Shown here: positions 55,282 through 60,285 of the stretch, piece after piece
Layout of the letters: each line of letters begins with the position of its first letter
Numbering within the stretch: position 1 is the stretch's first letter
Assembly (NCBI GenBank): GCA_016193335.1
Contig: JACPSK010000001.1
Location: forward strand, 585,440 to 649,439
Source of the DNA: Candidatus Magasanikiibacteriota bacterium
GTDB taxonomy: Bacteria > Patescibacteriota > Patescibacteriia > Magasanikbacterales > UBA922
Reading direction: 5' to 3'
Length of the DNA: 64,000 nt
Position numbers and translations under genes: made by a program
The notes under the pieces: generated by a model
The model's input: only the letters and a program-made list of their open reading frames with translations
Told to the model about the DNA's origin: nothing
Databases searched by the model: none

Positions 55282-55523
55282 GTTTTCACAGGATATAGTA
55301 TGGAGGCTTATTGGTCAATGAATGATATATGAGCTTGAGATTGACATCCAAAGCTATCTATGGTATAAAATCTAGTCAAAAGTTTCTCCGACTGTTTTTT
55401 TCTCTTTATTAACACAAAATAAAGGGCAGAAGTCAGTCGGGAGAAACGCCCGACCAGTTGGCGGTCTGGGGCTCCGGCATGGCGCTGGAGTGAGAGGCTG
55501 CCATTGCGTAGGAGGAAGTCCCC

Positions 55524-56399
55524 ATGGGACGACGTAGTAGGAGTGAAATCTCCGCGATCATGAGCGGAGCAGGTGTCGTTACCGCTGTCTGGACCAAGCT
55601 CGACGCCGCCGTGAGGAAGCTCGACAGCGCGGCTGCGGATGCCTGTCTCTATCGGCTGGCGACGGAGGAGGGAGACGATGTCATCCTCGAGATGGCGAAG
55701 GCTGCCGTGGCGGCACAGAAGAAGGGCACGGCGGCTCCTGTGGCGGCGCCGCAACTGCCGCCTCCGTCCGTCATAGACATCTCGAAGTTCTTCGCGCCGG
55801 TCGCGGACAGTGAGGCCATCATCCTGCTCACGCCGCAGTTCGGTAGCGAAGAGGCGGCGCGGATCGTGTACCAGTGCCGTCAGCTCGCCATGGACGAGGG
55901 CTACACCGGCTTCATCTTCTGGCGCGCCGCGGCCGGCTTCCTGTGGCGGACGCACGGTCCGCTTTTCGGCACCTGCCGCGAGAACTGGAAGTACCTCCAG
56001 ACCTGGAGGCTGAAGAACGACCCGACCACGACCGACTCCCTGGCCTTCTTCGTCCCGCGGCTGCTCACTGGCAGCACGGGCAAGGCGGTCACGGACCAGC
56101 GCAAGCTCCTCGTCGAGACGCGAGCCAAGTACACGCTCCCCGAGCCCTTCCTCAAGGACTTTGGTTCGGCCGCGTACGTCGCCGGACTGACGCTCTCGCA
56201 CCACCGCATCACGAGCGAGCGCACGCCGCTCGACCTGCTGTGGGCGCGCTGCGAAACGTTCCGCGAGGATGGCGGTCGCCTCGGCTTCGGCTTCTTCCTC
56301 GAGTCGAGCGGCCTCGGCTGCCTCAACTGGGACGACGGCCTCCCGGTCGACTTCATCGGCATCTTCCCCCTGGGGGTGGTGCCGATCCTCGGTCACTAG
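55524..56399 (+). CDS. DGR target (variable) protein; GC-rich; the C-terminal about 38 aa are encoded by the variable repeat
   Basis: RBS AGGAGG precedes ATG 55524. Strong GC3 codon bias on the plus strand. The C-terminus ...REDGGRLGFGFFLESSGLGCLNWDDGLPVDFIGIFPL is encoded by the VR. Confidence 0.85.
   Translation: MGRRSRSEISAIMSGAGVVTAVWTKLDAAVRKLDSAAADACLYRLATEEGDDVILEMAKAAVAAQKKGTAAPVAAPQLPPPSVIDISKFFAPVADSEAIILLTPQFGSEEAARIVYQCRQLAMDEGYTGFIFWRAAAGFLWRTHGPLFGTCRENWKYLQTWRLKNDPTTTDSLAFFVPRLLTGSTGKAVTDQRKLLVETRAKYTLPEPFLKDFGSAAYVAGLTLSHHRITSERTPLDLLWARCETFREDGGRLGFGFFLESSGLGCLNWDDGLPVDFIGIFPLGVVPILGH
56259..56372 (+). repeat. DGR variable repeat (VR)
   Basis: About 114 bp aligning to 56739-56852 with about 20 mismatches. 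Every mismatch is at an A in the TR copy (e.g. GGC/GAC, TTC/AAC, CTC/AAC, GTC/AAC). The 3' end ATCGGCATCTTCCCCCTG is identical in both (IMH-like). Confidence 0.9.
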
Positions 56400-56738
56400 G
56401 ATCCTCGGTACTGACACGAAGTCGGTACCTTGGTCCATCGGTCTTTGGGCCCCACCCGCAACGCATTTCGGTGCAACGCGCGTGAGGCTTCTTCTTTTAT
56501 ATACAAAATGTGATATACTTTTTTTGCATTATACCGACAGCACCGGCGTCCACGGATGCCGGCCGATAATGTCTGGCAACAGAATTGTAGAATTACAAAA
56601 CGTACGCGTTTTGTAAGAACATCCCTGTTGTTTGTGGGTTCACACACCCCGTGTTGGACGTTAAGAGACAGCGGTTTCACATTCGATACAGCTCGGAGAG
56701 TTTTCAACGAGCAGTGGCACGGACAGCGCTCAACACTT

Positions 56739-56852
56739 TTCCACGAGGATGGCGGACGCCTCGACTTCGGCAACTTCAACGAGTCGAACGGCCTCAACTG
56801 CAACAACTGGAACGACGACAACCCGAACGACAACATCGGCATCTTCCCCCTG
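56739..56852 (+). repeat. DGR template repeat (TR)
   Basis: Carries AAC (Asn) codons wherever the VR has diversified codons. It lies between the target gene and the avd/RT genes. The listed ORF 56556-56885 merely reads through it. Confidence 0.9.
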
Positions 56853-56898
56853 ATGATGTGTGCACCCAAAAGACGATTCCTCTGAATCGTCTTTGACG

Positions 56899-57282
56899 TT
56901 ATTTCAAACTGTGTAGCCACCCGCCGATCATTTTACCGATTACTGCCAGGCGTTCTGACAATTGCGCGTATTTGTTATTGTCCAGTGCTTTGATTTCCCA
57001 AAGAATTTGCAGAAAGAATTTTAACGCGTCAAATTGAGCACTTAATTTTTTAACAATGGCTAGCTTGTTTGTCCGTTCCGCATAACCGGCCGCGAGCGCC
57101 AGTGATAAAATATCGGTAAAAATTGCATCAATTTTTATACCCAATGAATACCGTGTGAGTCGTGGCAAATGAATTAAAAAACTATGCCAGAGTTTATAGG
57201 CGTTACTCAAACCATCAACGATCGGAATGTAGCTCTGGGGGGGGGGATTCCTAGTTTCGGATTGCGTAAGCAATTGCTTCAT
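56899..57282 (-). CDS. avd: Accessory variability determinant (Avd)-like four-helix-bundle protein (start placed at MKQLL; the ORF opens at 57330)
   Basis: About 127 aa. ...LPRLTRYSLGIKIDAIFTDILSLALAAGYAERTNKLAIVKKLSAQFDALKFFLQILWEIKAL...ERLAVIGKMIGGWLHSLK resembles Bordetella-phage bAvd and the 23S-rRNA-intervening-sequence four-helix-bundle family. It is on the strand opposite to the TR and RT. Confidence 0.7.
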   Translation of the reverse strand: MKQLLTQSETRNPPPQSYIPIVDGLSNAYKLWHSFLIHLPRLTRYSLGIKIDAIFTDILSLALAAGYAERTNKLAIVKKLSAQFDALKFFLQILWEIKALDNNKYAQLSERLAVIGKMIGGWLHSLK

Positions 57283-58281
57283 AGCTATGGTGATATTATT
57301 TCTATATCCAATCTTCTTGCCGCTTGGCAAGAGTTTGAAGTTGGAAAGAGTAAGAAATATGACGTTGTTCTGTTTGCGGATAGGTTAATGGACAACATCC
57401 TAGCACTCTATACGGATTTAGTAAACCGGACATATATCCACGGTGGTTATCGTGAATTTCGCATCAACGATCCCAAACCGCGTCTGATTCACAAAGCGAG
57501 TGTGCGCGACCGTTTGCTACATCATGCGGTACATAGAATGCTCTATCCTTTTTTTGATCGAATTTTTATTTTTGATTCCTTTTCTTGTCGGACCAATAAG
57601 GGCGTGCGTGCGGCGATTAACCGATTCAGAAAATGCGCGCACAAGGTCGGGCGCAACCATACACGCACAGTATGGGTCTTGAAATGTGATATTCGAAAGT
57701 TTTTTGCGAATATTGATCATGAAATTTTGTTGCGTATTCTTGATTATTATATTCCGGATAAAAGAATTGTGGATTTGCTGGAGAATATTATTGTAAGTTT
57801 TTCTATGACATCTGGTACTTCAGTTGGTTTGCCGTTGGGAAATTTGACCTCGCAGTTATTTTCCAACATTTATTTAGACCGACTCGATAGATGGGTGAAG
57901 CATCAGTTAAAAGAAAAGCATTATATTCGTTACGCGGATGATTTTGTGTTTTTATCCGCGGACAGAAATTATTTGCTGTCCTTGATTCCACAGGTGCAAC
58001 ATCTTTTATCCTGCACCTTAAAATTAGATCTGCATCCGAATAAATTTTTTTTAAAAACTATTGCGTCAGGTGTGGATTTTTTGGGCTGGATACACTTTTC
58101 AGATCACCGTGTACTTCGAAAAGTGACAAAACGGCGAATGACGAGAAAATTGGCGGAAAATTTCAAACCGGAAGTCCTGCAGTCGTATTTGGGATTACTC
58201 TCGCATGGGAATACGTTTAAGCTGCAAGAGACGATTAAGAATCAATTTTGGTTGGGCGGCACGCATATGTTAATGGGGTAG
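57184..58281 (+). CDS. DGR reverse transcriptase
   Basis: DGR-RT N-terminal block (NLLAAWQEFEVGKSKKYDVVLFADRLMDNILALYTDLVNRTYIHGGYREFRINDPKPRLIHKASVRDRLLHHAV), motif GLPLGNLTSQLFSNIYL and the catalytic IRYADDFVF. An alternative TTG start near 57262 is possible. Confidence 0.9.
   Translation: MPEFIGVTQTINDRNVALGGGIPSFGLRKQLLHSYGDIISISNLLAAWQEFEVGKSKKYDVVLFADRLMDNILALYTDLVNRTYIHGGYREFRINDPKPRLIHKASVRDRLLHHAVHRMLYPFFDRIFIFDSFSCRTNKGVRAAINRFRKCAHKVGRNHTRTVWVLKCDIRKFFANIDHEILLRILDYYIPDKRIVDLLENIIVSFSMTSGTSVGLPLGNLTSQLFSNIYLDRLDRWVKHQLKEKHYIRYADDFVFLSADRNYLLSLIPQVQHLLSCTLKLDLHPNKFFLKTIASGVDFLGWIHFSDHRVLRKVTKRRMTRKLAENFKPEVLQSYLGLLSHGNTFKLQETIKNQFWLGGTHMLMG
57237..57246. repeat. G10/C10 homopolymer tract inside the avd coding sequence and the RT 5' region
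   Basis: CTGGGGGGGGGGATTCC. It encodes GGG in the RT frame (if the ATG at 57184 is used) and NPPPQ in avd on the opposite strand. Confidence 0.85.
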
Positions 58282-58486
58282 TAGAGCTACTATAAGTAAG
58301 TAAGCTTGATAAAGCCGTTTTTTTATTTTATAGTCAAAAGTCAATTTGCGTGAGACGCAAAGACATCGCAATGGATTGCGGCTTTTTTGCGTCTTGCGAC
58401 CGGAATATCGGTTTCGAGACAGACTCGGGCTTTGCTCGGGTTTCAGGACGACAATTGGGTTTGAGAATGAAAAGAGGAGACAGCAA

Positions 58487-59944
58487 GTGAACAGGTTGGC
58501 CAAAATTTTTGTTGTTTTGTTCTATGTGTCTTGTTCCTGTCCTGAAGAGGACGGGGCGGTCATTGCGGATGTTTCGAGTTTTGGCAAGGACGCCGCCGCT
58601 TCCGTTGACACGACCGTGGCCGATATGAACGGCCAACTCGGGTTGTGCTACGTGGCTGAAGATGGCACGCCTTGCGACGATGAGAACGCCTGCACCACGG
58701 GCGATGAGTGCGAGGATGGACATTGCATCGGCGCCACGAGCGTGGTCTGCAAGAGCGACAGCGCTTGCGTGCCGACGAGCTGTGACCCACAGACCGGCTG
58801 TCTTATTGGCGAGACCTTGCCTGATGGCTCGGCCTGCAGCTTGGCTTGCCATGTGGAGGCTTACTGCGAAGCAGGCGACTGCTTGCCTGCCCAAGGCTCC
58901 AAGGTCCAATGTCCGAAGAGCGAGAACCCTTGCGTGGATCACCTGGAGTGCGACTCGGCCAACGGCCAGTGCACGATCCAGATCTTCAAGCCCGAGGGAG
59001 CTTCTTGCGACACGGACGTGAACACTTGCACGTTGGAGACCTGTGACGGTAACGGCCTATGCGCGGCTCAAGGCAAGAACGATTGCGCCGGCCTCAAGGC
59101 CATTGATCCGTGCTGGGCTTACCAGTGTTTGCCGGGCAAGGGTTGCGTGAAGCAACCGGGCGTGTTCTTCTTCAGCCTCTCTTGCGACGACGGGAGTCCT
59201 TGCACGATCAACGACGAATGTCAGCTCTCCGAGGGCGGCCTCGGTGGTTGCAAGGGAACTCCGCTGAAGACGAACGACGGCAACCCCTGCACCAGCGACT
59301 CCTGTGTCGCGGGTGAGGTCTTGCACGAGCCCATCAACGGCGCGCCCTGCGACGACGGCAACCCCTGCAGCGTCTCGGTCTGTGAGGGCAAGATCTGCGT
59401 CTACTACTCGCCGAGCGACTGCACAGACGGCAACCCCTGCACGGACGACGCCTGCAGTGACACCAGCGGCTGCGTCTACTTCGTCAACGACGGCAACCCT
59501 TGCGACGACGGCAACCCCTGCACCAGTGACTTTTGCAAGCAAGGGGTTGGCTGTGAGGCCGAAGTGCTGGTCGCGACGCCCTGTGAGGATGGGAGTCTCT
59601 GTAGCCTCGAGGACTTCTGCTTCGCGGGTGTCTGTCAGCCTGGCGCGAAGAGTCTCGGCTGCACAGACGGCAACCCCTGCACAGACGACGCCTGCCAACC
59701 GGCCAAGGGCTGCGTGTTCACGAACAACGCCAAGCCCTGCGACGACGGCAGCGCCTGCACCGAGGGGAGCTTCTGCAAGAACGGCTCTTGCAGTGGCTAC
59801 GCGGTGCTGAAGACCTGCCTGGACAACAACTCTTGCACCGAGGACATCTGCACCCCGCTGATTCCGGACTGCGTCTTCCCCACGAAGACCGATGGCGTCC
59901 CTTGCGGCGGAGACAAGATCTGTCTCTCGGGCGTCTGCCTGTAG
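58487..59944 (+). CDS. GC-rich secreted cysteine-repeat protein (CDDGNPC / DGNPCTDDAC repeats, Myxococcales-type Cys-rich repeat-like)
   Basis: GTG 58487 is preceded by AAGAGGAG. Lipoprotein-like signal MNRLAKIFVVLFYVSCSC, then at least 12 tandem Cys-rich units (...DGNPCTSDSC..., APCDDGNPCSVSVC, TDGNPCTDDACSDTSGC, NPCDDGNPCTSDFC, TDGNPCTDDACQPAKGC, KPCDDGSACTEGSFC). The ORF opens at TTG 58346. Confidence 0.75.
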   Translation: MNRLAKIFVVLFYVSCSCPEEDGAVIADVSSFGKDAAASVDTTVADMNGQLGLCYVAEDGTPCDDENACTTGDECEDGHCIGATSVVCKSDSACVPTSCDPQTGCLIGETLPDGSACSLACHVEAYCEAGDCLPAQGSKVQCPKSENPCVDHLECDSANGQCTIQIFKPEGASCDTDVNTCTLETCDGNGLCAAQGKNDCAGLKAIDPCWAYQCLPGKGCVKQPGVFFFSLSCDDGSPCTINDECQLSEGGLGGCKGTPLKTNDGNPCTSDSCVAGEVLHEPINGAPCDDGNPCSVSVCEGKICVYYSPSDCTDGNPCTDDACSDTSGCVYFVNDGNPCDDGNPCTSDFCKQGVGCEAEVLVATPCEDGSLCSLEDFCFAGVCQPGAKSLGCTDGNPCTDDACQPAKGCVFTNNAKPCDDGSACTEGSFCKNGSCSGYAVLKTCLDNNSCTEDICTPLIPDCVFPTKTDGVPCGGDKICLSGVCL

Positions 59945-60285
59945 AGAGGCCTTTGTTCTTTTGATGATCCGGACCTGATATTCGTGAACTCAGGTCCTCG
60001 CTTCCCGTCTAGATGAAATATTCCTCTGAACAGGAAGAAAAAAGAAGTTATTTTGGCTTCTTTTTTATTTGAGATGAAAATTAAGTTTCCTTTAAGGAGC
60101 ATCTAAATTTGCTTATGATCTTTGTCGTTAAAGTCTCCTGGATATTTGCTTTTAAACAGGCTAATTTTTTTGTTGGTATGTTAATTGAAGCTTTTTGTAC
60201 TACTATGTTATACTTATTTGGTAGTAATTTCATTATTAGAATATAGGTCGGTTCTAATAATAAATCATTCTTAAAATAATATAGT

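What the first reader, a model, noticed from the sequence alone, without database searches (positions are those of the whole stretch)
57237..57246. G10 homopolymer tract within the avd coding sequence and the RT 5' end: possible phase-variable switch of DGR activity
A run of ten G (CTGGGGGGGGGGATTCC) lies in the avd coding sequence, where it encodes N-P-P-P-Q on the minus strand. If the RT uses the ATG at 57184 it also lies in the RT N-terminus, encoding L-G-G-G; if the RT starts at the TTG near 57262 it lies just upstream of the RT instead. Tracts of this length are classic slipped-strand mispairing sites. A +1 or -1 slip would frameshift Avd, and the RT too under the first start model. That would toggle mutagenic homing on or off. 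I am not aware of this regulatory layout being described for DGRs.
Basis: partly seen in the sequence, partly recalled or inferred. Interest (0 to 1): 0.75.

Follow-up and report, generated by a model that had tools for sequence, protein, structure and literature searches.

The report
Slippery G-run switch inside a DGR
A run of ten G sits where the two enzyme genes of a targeted-mutation system (a DGR) overlap head to head; the same unstable repeat recurs at this spot in over a hundred related elements of tiny groundwater bacteria, and one base more or less breaks the reading frame, so it looks like a built-in, previously undescribed on/off switch for the mutation machine.

Summary
The G10 at 57237-57246 is real and is the only G/C run of 8 or more in 64 kb (about 0.03 expected). 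It lies in a complete DGR: VR 56259-56372, TR 56739-56852 (20 mismatches, all at TR adenines), avd on the minus strand and RT on the plus strand.

It is not a one-off. A simple-sequence repeat occupies this position in 74 of 77 related Patescibacteria loci from genomes, and in most loci from metagenomes. It is usually G6-G14, but also (GA)n, (CT)n, (GT)n, (CTGG)n or C8. More distant DGRs lack it.

On the avd strand, the ATG antisense to a conserved RT His codon opens a stop-free frame into the tract in 89 of 89 loci. That ATG is in frame with the Avd domain in only about 37%.

Tract length differs between otherwise identical elements. In the closest relatives, G10 gives full-length Avd and G11 truncates it, with no other difference in 4.4 kb. 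Another strain shows G7, G8 and G9.

In the window, G10 keeps both Avd and the RT from ATG 57184 in frame; G8, G9, G11 or G12 truncate Avd. Five assemblies of this strain all show G10.

The effect on mutagenic homing is inferred. I found no prior description.

The parts
57237..57246 (.). G10 on the plus strand (C10 on the avd strand): the simple-sequence repeat
   Evidence: It is the only G/C run of 8 or more in the window. An SSR sits at the homologous position in 74/77 genome loci and in most metagenome loci.
56899..57282 (-). avd gene, 127 aa plus stop, from the ATG at 57282-57280. Product: MKQLLTQSETRNPPPQSYIPIVDGLSNAYKLWH...
   Evidence: Pfam bAvd, E=5e-11, 43.4 bits against a cut-off of 40. 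NCBIfam DivGenRetAVD model positions 3-103 align from residue I37 of the 143-aa ORF, just after PPP. Public gene calls give the same 127 aa.
57247..57282 (-). avd leader: 12 codons from the ATG to the tract, antisense to the RT N-terminal codons (LRKQLLH)
   Evidence: The homologous ATG frame is stop-free to the tract in 89/89 loci. RT Leu codons in the overlap avoid TTA/CTA.
57184..58281 (+). RT ORF, 365 aa from ATG 57184, reading through the tract as ALGGGI. The conserved RT core begins at about 57262.
   Evidence: Pfam RVT_1, E=9e-23. Homologs at 55-72% identity. NCBI protein MBI2990108.1 is this 365-aa form. noATG-class analysis.
57184..57236 (+). RT N-terminal extension (MPEFIGVTQTINDRNVAL), codon-aligned antisense to Avd residues QSYIPIVDGLSNAYKLWH
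   Evidence: MP[EQ].. extensions that are stop-free occur in 18/19 noATG-class loci. The same extensions appear in called homologs P0008, P0009, P0011, P0014 and P0017.
57262..57276 (+). Alternative RT start codons TTG 57262-57264 and TTG 57274-57276, both downstream of the tract
   Evidence: These are the only canonical starts between the tract and the RT core. Their use cannot be excluded.
56739..56852 (+). Template repeat (TR)
   Evidence: 114 nt, 31 adenines. All 20 mismatches to the VR are at TR adenines.
56259..56372 (+). Variable repeat (VR) at the 3' end of the target gene
   Evidence: the only VR copy in the window. Logan contigs of this strain end inside it.
55524..56399 (+). DGR target gene, 291 aa, about 67% GC, no Pfam hit
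56869..56894 (+). Hairpin (11-bp stem) followed by a T-rich tail, between the TR end and the avd stop codon. Candidate bidirectional terminator.

Best explanation
The G10 is a hypermutable simple-sequence repeat. It sits in the roughly 100-bp stretch where the divergently oriented avd (minus strand) and RT (plus strand) genes of this DGR overlap at their 5' ends.

Avd translation starts at ATG 57282, which is antisense to the RT His codon. It reads 12 codons, crosses the tract as Pro-Pro-Pro, and only then enters the Avd four-helix domain. In this RT subclass the RT likewise starts upstream, at ATG 57184, and crosses the tract as Gly-Gly-Gly. The two start codons are codon-aligned antisense to each other's frames, so both genes are in frame together or out of frame together.

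At G10, the state in the window, both are in frame. Gain or loss of one or two G by slipped-strand mispairing truncates Avd after 21-25 residues and disconnects the RT from its ATG. That should shut down mutagenic homing until a compensating slip occurs.

Shown: conservation of the repeat; the protected reading frames on both strands; length polymorphism with in-frame and out-of-frame alleles in close relatives; and the in-silico outcome for this locus.

Inferred: that slippage happens at a useful rate in this strain, that it is reversible, and that Avd/RT loss actually silences the DGR.
For: (1) Conservation. Among the genome loci there are 68 poly-G (G6-G14), 5 (GA)n and 1 (CT)n at the same place in the 77 loci with upstream sequence. 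The metagenome loci show the same, plus (GT)n, (CTGG)n and C8. DGR RTs at 28-46% identity have no repeat. Interchangeable repeat types and lengths that do not differ by multiples of 3 argue for selection on instability rather than on a peptide or RNA motif.

(2) The tract lies in translated sequence. The anti-His ATG frame is stop-free to the tract in 89/89 loci, against 11 and 16 of 89 for the other frames and 49% in shuffles. TTA/CTA Leu codons are absent from the overlapped RT codons (0/72 against 27%, p=2e-10). At least 14 loci have no other usable Avd start. Three relatives without a repeat that I read by hand (L209, L211, L212) have an ATG 4-6 codons before the Avd helix.

(3) The RT extends through the tract in the window's subclass: 18/19 against 15/46, p=4e-6.

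(4) Polymorphism. In the P0002 cluster, G10 (Avd full length) versus G11 (Avd stops after 19 aa) is the sole difference in up to 4392 nt across 8 contigs. The P0110 strain has G7 x4, G8 x11 and G9 x5 with identical flanks. At the protein level, the P0110 cluster has variants that differ by one more or one fewer Gly codon at the tract (P0131, P0128). One P0002-cluster variant (P0138) has an interrupted tract, GWG. The P0107 strain has a G8 variant (P0157).

(5) In the window, G10 gives Avd of 127 aa and a continuous RT frame, while G8/9/11/12 truncate Avd.
Against: The window strain shows G10 in all five assemblies examined (window/L001, L002, L003, L235). Two other strains were also uniform: G10 x6, and G9 x9 with one G8 variant.

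Across species the avd ATG is in frame in only about 37% of loci (22/65 and 20/43). That is indistinguishable from the 1/3 expected with no frame constraint.

The G9 strain is out of frame in 9 assemblies, yet its VR differs between assemblies, visibly at positions where the invariant TR has A. Another strain carries a fixed second frameshift in avd and still has 7 distinct VRs among 13 contigs. Both cases suggest that Avd is made, or is dispensable, without an in-frame DNA allele.

The RT could use TTG 57262 or 57274 and escape the switch. No read-level data, RNA data or activity data were available.
Confidence: 0.6

Rival explanations
1. The tract works mainly at the RNA or ribosome level. 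RNA polymerase stutters on a homopolymer as long as the RNA-DNA hybrid, or ribosomes shift on CCC-C codons. Every DNA allele then yields a minority of in-frame avd product. On this reading the repeat is a constitutive attenuator that sets a low Avd (and RT) dose, not a heritable on/off switch.
For: The in-frame fraction across species is near 1/3. A G9 strain that is out of frame in 9 assemblies, with a stop one codon upstream of the tract in the Avd frame and no canonical downstream start, still shows adenine-type VR turnover. Modal tract lengths of 9-10 are close to the length of the transcription hybrid, about 9 bp from my own knowledge.
Against: DNA-level length alleles clearly exist and segregate between samples. 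As far as I recall, transcriptional slippage is documented mostly for A/T runs; G/C runs are less well studied. (GA)n, (GT)n and (CTGG)n replacements fit DNA slippage as well or better. The two mechanisms are not mutually exclusive.
Confidence: 0.22
2. The tract is non-coding. Avd starts downstream of it (for example at TTG 57210) and the RT starts at TTG 57262. The repeat is then a spacer in the shared divergent control region, and its length tunes promoter geometry or does nothing.
For: The NCBIfam Avd model begins only after the tract. Most related RTs have their own ATG 13-34 nt downstream of the tract, often with a stop in between. The in-frame fraction near 1/3 is also what a non-coding element predicts.
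Against: The ATG frame is stop-free to the tract in 89/89 loci and the overlapped RT codons avoid antisense stops. At least 14 loci have no canonical Avd start near the domain. The three repeat-free relatives I read (L209, L211, L212) carry an ATG exactly where the repeat sits in this clade. No sigma-70-like promoter was found in 56380-57480, although that scan is crude and may not suit these organisms.
Confidence: 0.12
3. The tract is a neutral mutational by-product or a sequencing or assembly artefact, with no function.
For: Poly-G is a known problem sequence for Illumina chemistry (my own knowledge). Four contigs end at or next to the tract position (L008, L012, L014, L017). Two scaffolds have N-gaps directly beside the tract (L020, L066), and L030 has a garbled junction with a G17, an N-gap and a C51 just upstream of the RT.
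Against: The repeat is present at one homologous position in more than 100 loci from many studies and assemblers. It is flanked by protected reading frames and is replaced by other repeat types. The G10 and G11 alleles are each reproduced in several independent assemblies, and MEGAHIT assemblies within one ENA accession series (ERZ27254752 and ERZ27254763) give different alleles.
Confidence: 0.03

Closest known systems
Translational phase variation at simple-sequence repeats in contingency loci (poly-G tracts in Campylobacter jejuni and Neisseria genes such as hmbR; tetranucleotide repeats in Haemophilus influenzae)
   Same: A G8-G13-type homopolymer, or a di- or tetranucleotide repeat, lies in the 5' part of an ORF. 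Indels of one unit shift the frame and truncate the product. In-frame and out-of-frame alleles coexist among otherwise identical genomes.
   Different: The gene switched here is not a surface structure or a methyltransferase but the accessory protein (and probably the RT) of a targeted hypermutation system. One repeat is read on both strands by two overlapping divergent genes. The hosts are uncultured Patescibacteria. Switching rate and reversibility are unmeasured.
Bordetella phage BPP-1 DGR (mtd-avd-TR-brt), the reference DGR
   Same: RT, Avd and a TR/VR pair with adenine-specific mismatches. From the literature, Avd is required there for cDNA synthesis and homing (PMC6182149).
   Different: In BPP-1 the order is mtd, avd, TR, brt on one strand and no repeat is involved. 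Here the order is target-VR, TR, avd (inverted), RT. avd and RT overlap head to head across an unstable repeat.
Promoter-located repeats that phase-vary divergent or single genes (H. influenzae hifA/hifB (TA)n; Bordetella fim poly-C; Neisseria nspA poly-A, PMC6389960)
   Same: A repeat sits between two divergently oriented genes and could affect both at once.
   Different: Those repeats sit between or next to the -35 and -10 elements and change transcription. Here the repeat lies inside protected reading frames and no such promoter was detected.
Genes that depend on transcriptional slippage at homopolymers (Thermus dnaX A9, Shigella mxiE T9, poly-A frameshifts maintained in insect endosymbionts); recalled from my own knowledge
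   Same: A homopolymer of about the hybrid length lies inside a coding region. Out-of-frame DNA alleles persist while the gene product still seems to be made.
   Different: The known cases I recall are A/T runs with a fixed DNA length. Here the run is G/C, varies at the DNA level and can be replaced by multi-base repeats.
Contingency loci in phage genomes (bioRxiv 10.1101/2025.10.21.683753)
   Same: Hypermutable repeats used for bet-hedging outside the classical pathogen surface genes.
   Different: The genes and hosts differ. No link to DGRs is made in its title or abstract, and the text of that preprint was not read. No paper in the library with a DGR focus also discusses homopolymers or repeat-mediated switching; the co-occurring hits were judged unrelated from their titles and abstracts.

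Membership tests
Diversity-generating retroelement (DGR) | TR/VR pair whose differences fall at template adenines | tested here: met
   VR 56259-56372 against TR 56739-56852: 20 mismatches in 114 nt, all at TR adenines (20 of 31 A).
Diversity-generating retroelement (DGR) | Reverse transcriptase of the DGR clade next to the TR | tested here: met
   RVT_1, E=9e-23. Its homologs are encoded next to Avd genes. In two relatives where I checked, the VR differs from an invariant TR at adenine positions.
Diversity-generating retroelement (DGR) | Accessory variability determinant (Avd) | tested here: met
   Pfam bAvd 43.4 bits against a cut-off of 40. NCBIfam DivGenRetAVD scores 58 bits, below its equivalog cut-off of 80, so this is a divergent member.
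SSR contingency locus (translational phase variation) | Repeat of slippage-prone length inside the 5' part of a translated ORF | tested here: met
   The G10 lies 12 codons after the avd ATG. The frame is protected in 89/89 relatives, and the overlapped RT codons show a matching bias.
SSR contingency locus (translational phase variation) | A change of one unit shifts the frame and truncates the product | tested here: met
   In silico, G8/9/11/12 give Avd of 21-25 aa. A natural G11 allele in the closest relatives stops after 19 aa.
SSR contingency locus (translational phase variation) | Repeat length differs among otherwise identical genomes of the same strain | tested here: inconclusive
   This strain shows G10 in all 5 assemblies, consensus only with no reads. 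Relatives: G10/G11 with 0 other differences in 4.4 kb; G7/G8/G9; G9/G8.
SSR contingency locus (translational phase variation) | High-frequency, reversible switching within a clonal lineage, with a phenotype | not testable with these tools
   This needs read-level or culture and reporter data.
Promoter-spacer repeat (hif/fim type) | Repeat located between or beside -35 and -10 hexamers of the regulated gene | tested here: not met
   No sigma-70-like site in 56380-57480 on either strand. The repeat lies in protected ORFs. The scan is simple and may not fit Patescibacteria promoters.
Programmed transcriptional slippage site | mRNA length heterogeneity at the run that restores the frame | not testable with these tools
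   Only indirect hints: VR turnover in lineages whose consensus is out of frame.

The most novel reading that the evidence does not exclude
An unstable repeat planted between the start codon and the body of avd (and, in one subclass, of the RT) is an ancestral, selected control element of a whole clade of Patescibacteria DGRs. It has been rebuilt repeatedly with different repeat units. It makes the activity of a targeted hypermutator itself stochastic and heritable: one diversity generator gated by another, so that only a subpopulation pays the cost of mutagenic homing at any time.
Probability: 0.5. Interest if true: 0.85.

Novelty: new variant of a known kind. Interest (0 to 1): 0.8.

Why it matters
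How DGRs are regulated is largely unknown. The elements are very common in the candidate phyla radiation, yet nothing explains when they fire.

A repeat-based frame switch shared by more than 100 elements would give a concrete and testable answer. It predicts on and off subpopulations that can be read directly from metagenomic reads. It also supplies locked-on and locked-off designs for reconstitution, which matters for the DGR-based directed-evolution tools now being built.

It would also extend contingency loci to uncultured ultra-small bacteria. It is a rare example of one repeat read in two overlapping antisense reading frames.

For annotation, it explains why avd and RT starts in these genomes are called inconsistently (RT as 297 or 365 aa; avd as 81, 84 or 127 aa) and why avd often looks like a pseudogene.

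Tried and rejected
1. PPP/GGG as a conserved peptide motif. Rejected: tract lengths of 6 to 14 do not differ by multiples of three, and the tract is replaced by (GA)n, (CT)n, (GT)n, (CTGG)n or C8.

2. A strand-specific RNA element, such as a polypurine tract, a G-rich DGR-RNA motif or a Shine-Dalgarno mimic for the RT. Rejected: pyrimidine and mixed repeats occur at the same place. The distance to the RT ATG varies from 13 to 34 nt in most loci and reaches 52 nt in outliers. Rfam finds nothing in 56300-57500.

3. A promoter spacer. No sigma-70-like site was found, and the reading-frame evidence argues against it.

4. Search for other alleles of this exact strain. Exact flanks with N{6,16} in metagenome contigs gave 0 hits. 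Protein-cluster look-ups of its Avd and RT gave only the G10-compatible forms.

5. Correlation of tract state with VR variants in the P0110 strain. No pattern was visible in 13 contigs.

6. Literature. Eight full-text searches were run, six of them pairing DGR terms with poly-G, homopolymer or phase-variation terms. No DGR-focused paper among the hits links DGRs with poly-G, homopolymers, slipped-strand mispairing or repeat-mediated phase variation. The papers that hold both kinds of term looked unrelated from their titles and abstracts; one was opened and confirmed unrelated. Two DGR papers were also term-searched. The main CPR DGR survey (Paul et al. 2017, PMC5436926) is not held, so I could not check whether it mentions the tract.

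7. Second VR in the window. None.

Full report
**Observation**

The G10 is at 57237-57246, exactly as described. It is the only G or C run of 8 or more in the 64-kb window. The next longest is a G7, and about 0.03-0.04 runs of this length are expected by chance.

The surroundings are a complete DGR:
- a GC-rich target gene at 55524-56399 (plus strand);
- its VR at 56259-56372;
- the TR at 56739-56852;
- an Avd gene on the minus strand;
- an RT ORF on the plus strand that is open from ATG 57184.

VR and TR differ at 20 positions, and all 20 are TR adenines. The Avd gene has a Pfam bAvd hit at E=5e-11. The NCBIfam Avd model starts to align just after the PPP encoded by the tract. The RT ORF hits RVT_1 at E=9e-23. 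A hairpin at 56869-56894 separates the TR from the avd stop codon.

**The tract is a clade-wide feature**

Many RT homologs (55-72% identity) from Magasanikbacteria, Uhrbacteria and other Patescibacteria have called ORFs that run upstream. These carry GGG at the same place.

I fetched 80 related loci from species-representative genomes. Of the 77 with upstream sequence:
- 68 have poly-G (G6-G14, mostly 9-10) on the RT strand, 16-56 nt before the RT core;
- 5 have (GA)n;
- 1 has (CT)n;
- 3 have interrupted G-rich remnants.

Eighty further loci from metagenomes show the same pattern. They add (GT)n, (CTGG)n and a C8 at this position.

Viral-contig DGR RTs at 28-46% identity have no repeat. Three relatives without a repeat that I read by hand (L209, L211, L212) have avd with its own ATG 4-6 codons before the first Avd helix, for example MSMIQDDLPIIK and MNDNDVPILRK. 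That is exactly where the repeat sits in this clade.

Lengths that do not differ by multiples of three, together with interchangeable repeat units, rule out a conserved peptide or a sequence-specific RNA or DNA motif. They point instead to selection for an unstable repeat.

**Which reading frames cross the tract**

On the avd strand, the ATG antisense to the conserved His codon of the RT N-terminus (MKIQLxH) opens a frame. In the window this is CAT at 57280-57282.
- That frame has no stop up to the tract in 89 of 89 non-redundant loci.
- The other two frames are open in only 11 and 16 of 89.
- Shuffled sequences are open 49% of the time.

The RT codons overlapped by this frame never use TTA or CTA for Leu, which would be antisense stops. 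The count is 0/72, against 27% in the RT body (p=2e-10).

At least 14 loci have neither an in-frame upstream start nor a canonical start near the Avd domain. So avd is translated from this ATG, across the repeat.

On the RT strand, most relatives have their own ATG 13-34 nt downstream of the tract, often with a stop in between. A subclass that includes the window has no ATG or GTG there. In that subclass the frame antisense-aligned to the Avd N-terminus is stop-free in 18/19 loci, against 15/46 in the other class (p=4e-6). It begins with an MP.. ATG in 11/19. NCBI annotates the window's RT as the 365-aa form.

The geometry follows from this. Each start codon is codon-aligned antisense to the other gene's frame, so both ORFs are in frame or out of frame together.

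**Is the tract unstable?**

In the 90%-identity cluster of the closest relatives (P0002, 72% to the window RT), the called RT N-termini fall into two upstream frames that meet at the GGG. One variant has an interrupted tract, GWG.

At the DNA level, eight contigs from different samples align over up to 4392 nt with zero mismatches. The only difference is G10 versus G11.
- G10 gives a full-length Avd: MSQMNFIPTTKNPPPIGSTDIPIIHKLSESYKLW...
- G11 gives MSQMNFIPTTKNPPPHWKH followed by a stop.

A second strain has G7 (4 contigs), G8 (11) and G9 (5) with identical flanks. Protein-level variants in the same cluster differ by one more or one fewer Gly codon at the tract. A third strain is G9 in at least 9 assemblies, with one G8 variant.

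Two strains were uniform. One is G10 in 6 assemblies. The other is the window's own strain, with G10 in L001-L003 and L235, the last identical to the window over 3420 nt.

A flank-anchored search of JGI metagenomes for other alleles of this strain found nothing.

**What slippage would do here**

With G10, Avd is 127 aa and the RT frame is continuous from ATG 57184. With G8, G9, G11 or G12, Avd stops after 21-25 residues and the ATG-57184 ORF leaves the RT frame. The RT is then left with only TTG 57262 or 57274.

**Complications**

Across species the avd ATG is in frame in 22/65 and 20/43 loci. That is close to the 1/3 expected with no constraint on the consensus allele.

The G9 strain is out of frame in all nine assemblies. 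It has a stop one codon before the tract in the Avd frame and no canonical downstream start. Yet its VR differs between assemblies, visibly at positions where the invariant TR has A.

The G7-G9 strain carries an additional fixed frameshift at a T7 run inside avd. It still shows 7 distinct VRs among 13 contigs.

These facts fit a switch in which rare in-frame cells do the diversifying. They fit equally well slippage during transcription or translation that makes some Avd from any allele. I cannot separate these two readings without reads, RNA or experiments.

**Comparison with known systems**

The behaviour is that of a classical contingency locus: a repeat in the 5' coding region, with frame-shifting indels that segregate among clonal genomes. 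What is new is the target and the layout. The accessory protein, and probably the RT, of a DGR are the genes affected. A single repeat is read on both strands by two head-to-head overlapping genes.

Six of the eight full-text searches I ran paired DGR terms with poly-G, homopolymer or phase-variation terms. None returned a DGR-focused paper that links DGRs with homopolymers, slipped-strand mispairing or repeat-mediated phase variation. The hits that contain both kinds of term looked unrelated from their titles and abstracts, and the one I opened was unrelated. Term searches inside two DGR papers also found nothing. The key CPR DGR survey (Paul et al. 2017) is not in the library, so prior mention there cannot be excluded.

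**Verdict**

I rate it as a new variant of a known kind, with high interest.

Noticed in passing
L157, L206, L137, L007, L046/L050/L058/L076/L078, L215 (position homologous to window 57237-57246): The same spot between avd and RT holds different repeat units in different lineages: (GT)n, (CTGG)n, C8, (CT)n and (GA)n. This looks like repeated replacement of one unstable repeat by another.
   Followed up: partly
L099-L118 (P0110 strain), avd about 250 nt upstream of the RT start: avd has a second, fixed frameshift at a T7 run (A7 on the plus strand) in all 19 contigs checked. The VRs of this strain nevertheless differ between samples (7 distinct among 13). Either avd is a recent pseudogene or this run is also bypassed by slippage.
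   Followed up: partly
L090-L098 (P0107 strain): The consensus tract G9 leaves avd out of frame in nine assemblies. Even so, the VR (L090 530-674) carries five different adenine-type variants among six assemblies with an identical TR.
   Followed up: yes
L008, L012, L014, L017 (contig ends); L020, L066, L030 (N-gaps): Four contigs end at or next to the tract position. Two scaffolds have N-gaps directly beside the tract, and L030 has a garbled G17/N-gap/C51 junction just upstream of the RT. This could reflect poly-G sequencing trouble, length heterogeneity in the population, or both.
   Followed up: no
window 55308-56438 (-) and 56396-56920 (-); L001 gene calls: Public gene calls put 376-aa and 174-aa ORFs on the minus strand across the GC-rich target gene and the TR. 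The DGR target, VR and TR are therefore effectively unannotated. The RT is called as 297 aa in one record and 365 aa in another, and avd as 127 or 81 aa.
   Followed up: partly
window 55400-56600 and 58400-59950: Two islands of 60-68% GC lie in a genome of roughly 35-48% GC. One is the DGR target gene. The other is a 532-aa Cys-rich repeat protein (Dicty_CTDC repeats) just downstream of the RT. The origin of this composition contrast is unexplained, and no second VR was found there.
   Followed up: partly
L002, L003, L235; L119-L126: In the window strain, two Logan contigs (L002, L235) stop inside the VR and one (L003) stops inside the TR. In the Rifle relatives, most contigs stop about 1.3 kb upstream of the RT start. 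The window-strain breaks are what within-sample VR heterogeneity or TR/VR repeat collapse would produce.
   Followed up: no
P0138 (P0002 cluster): One variant has the tract interrupted (GGG TGG GGG, read as GWG). This would stabilise the in-frame state, a natural locked-on allele.
   Followed up: no
L119-L126, RT strand just upstream of the tract: In the Rifle relatives the RT has an in-frame ATG upstream of the tract in two of the three frames (MNNRNVSASN-GGG and MSVLPM-GGG). The RT therefore stays translatable in both the G10 and G11 alleles, while Avd toggles.
   Followed up: partly
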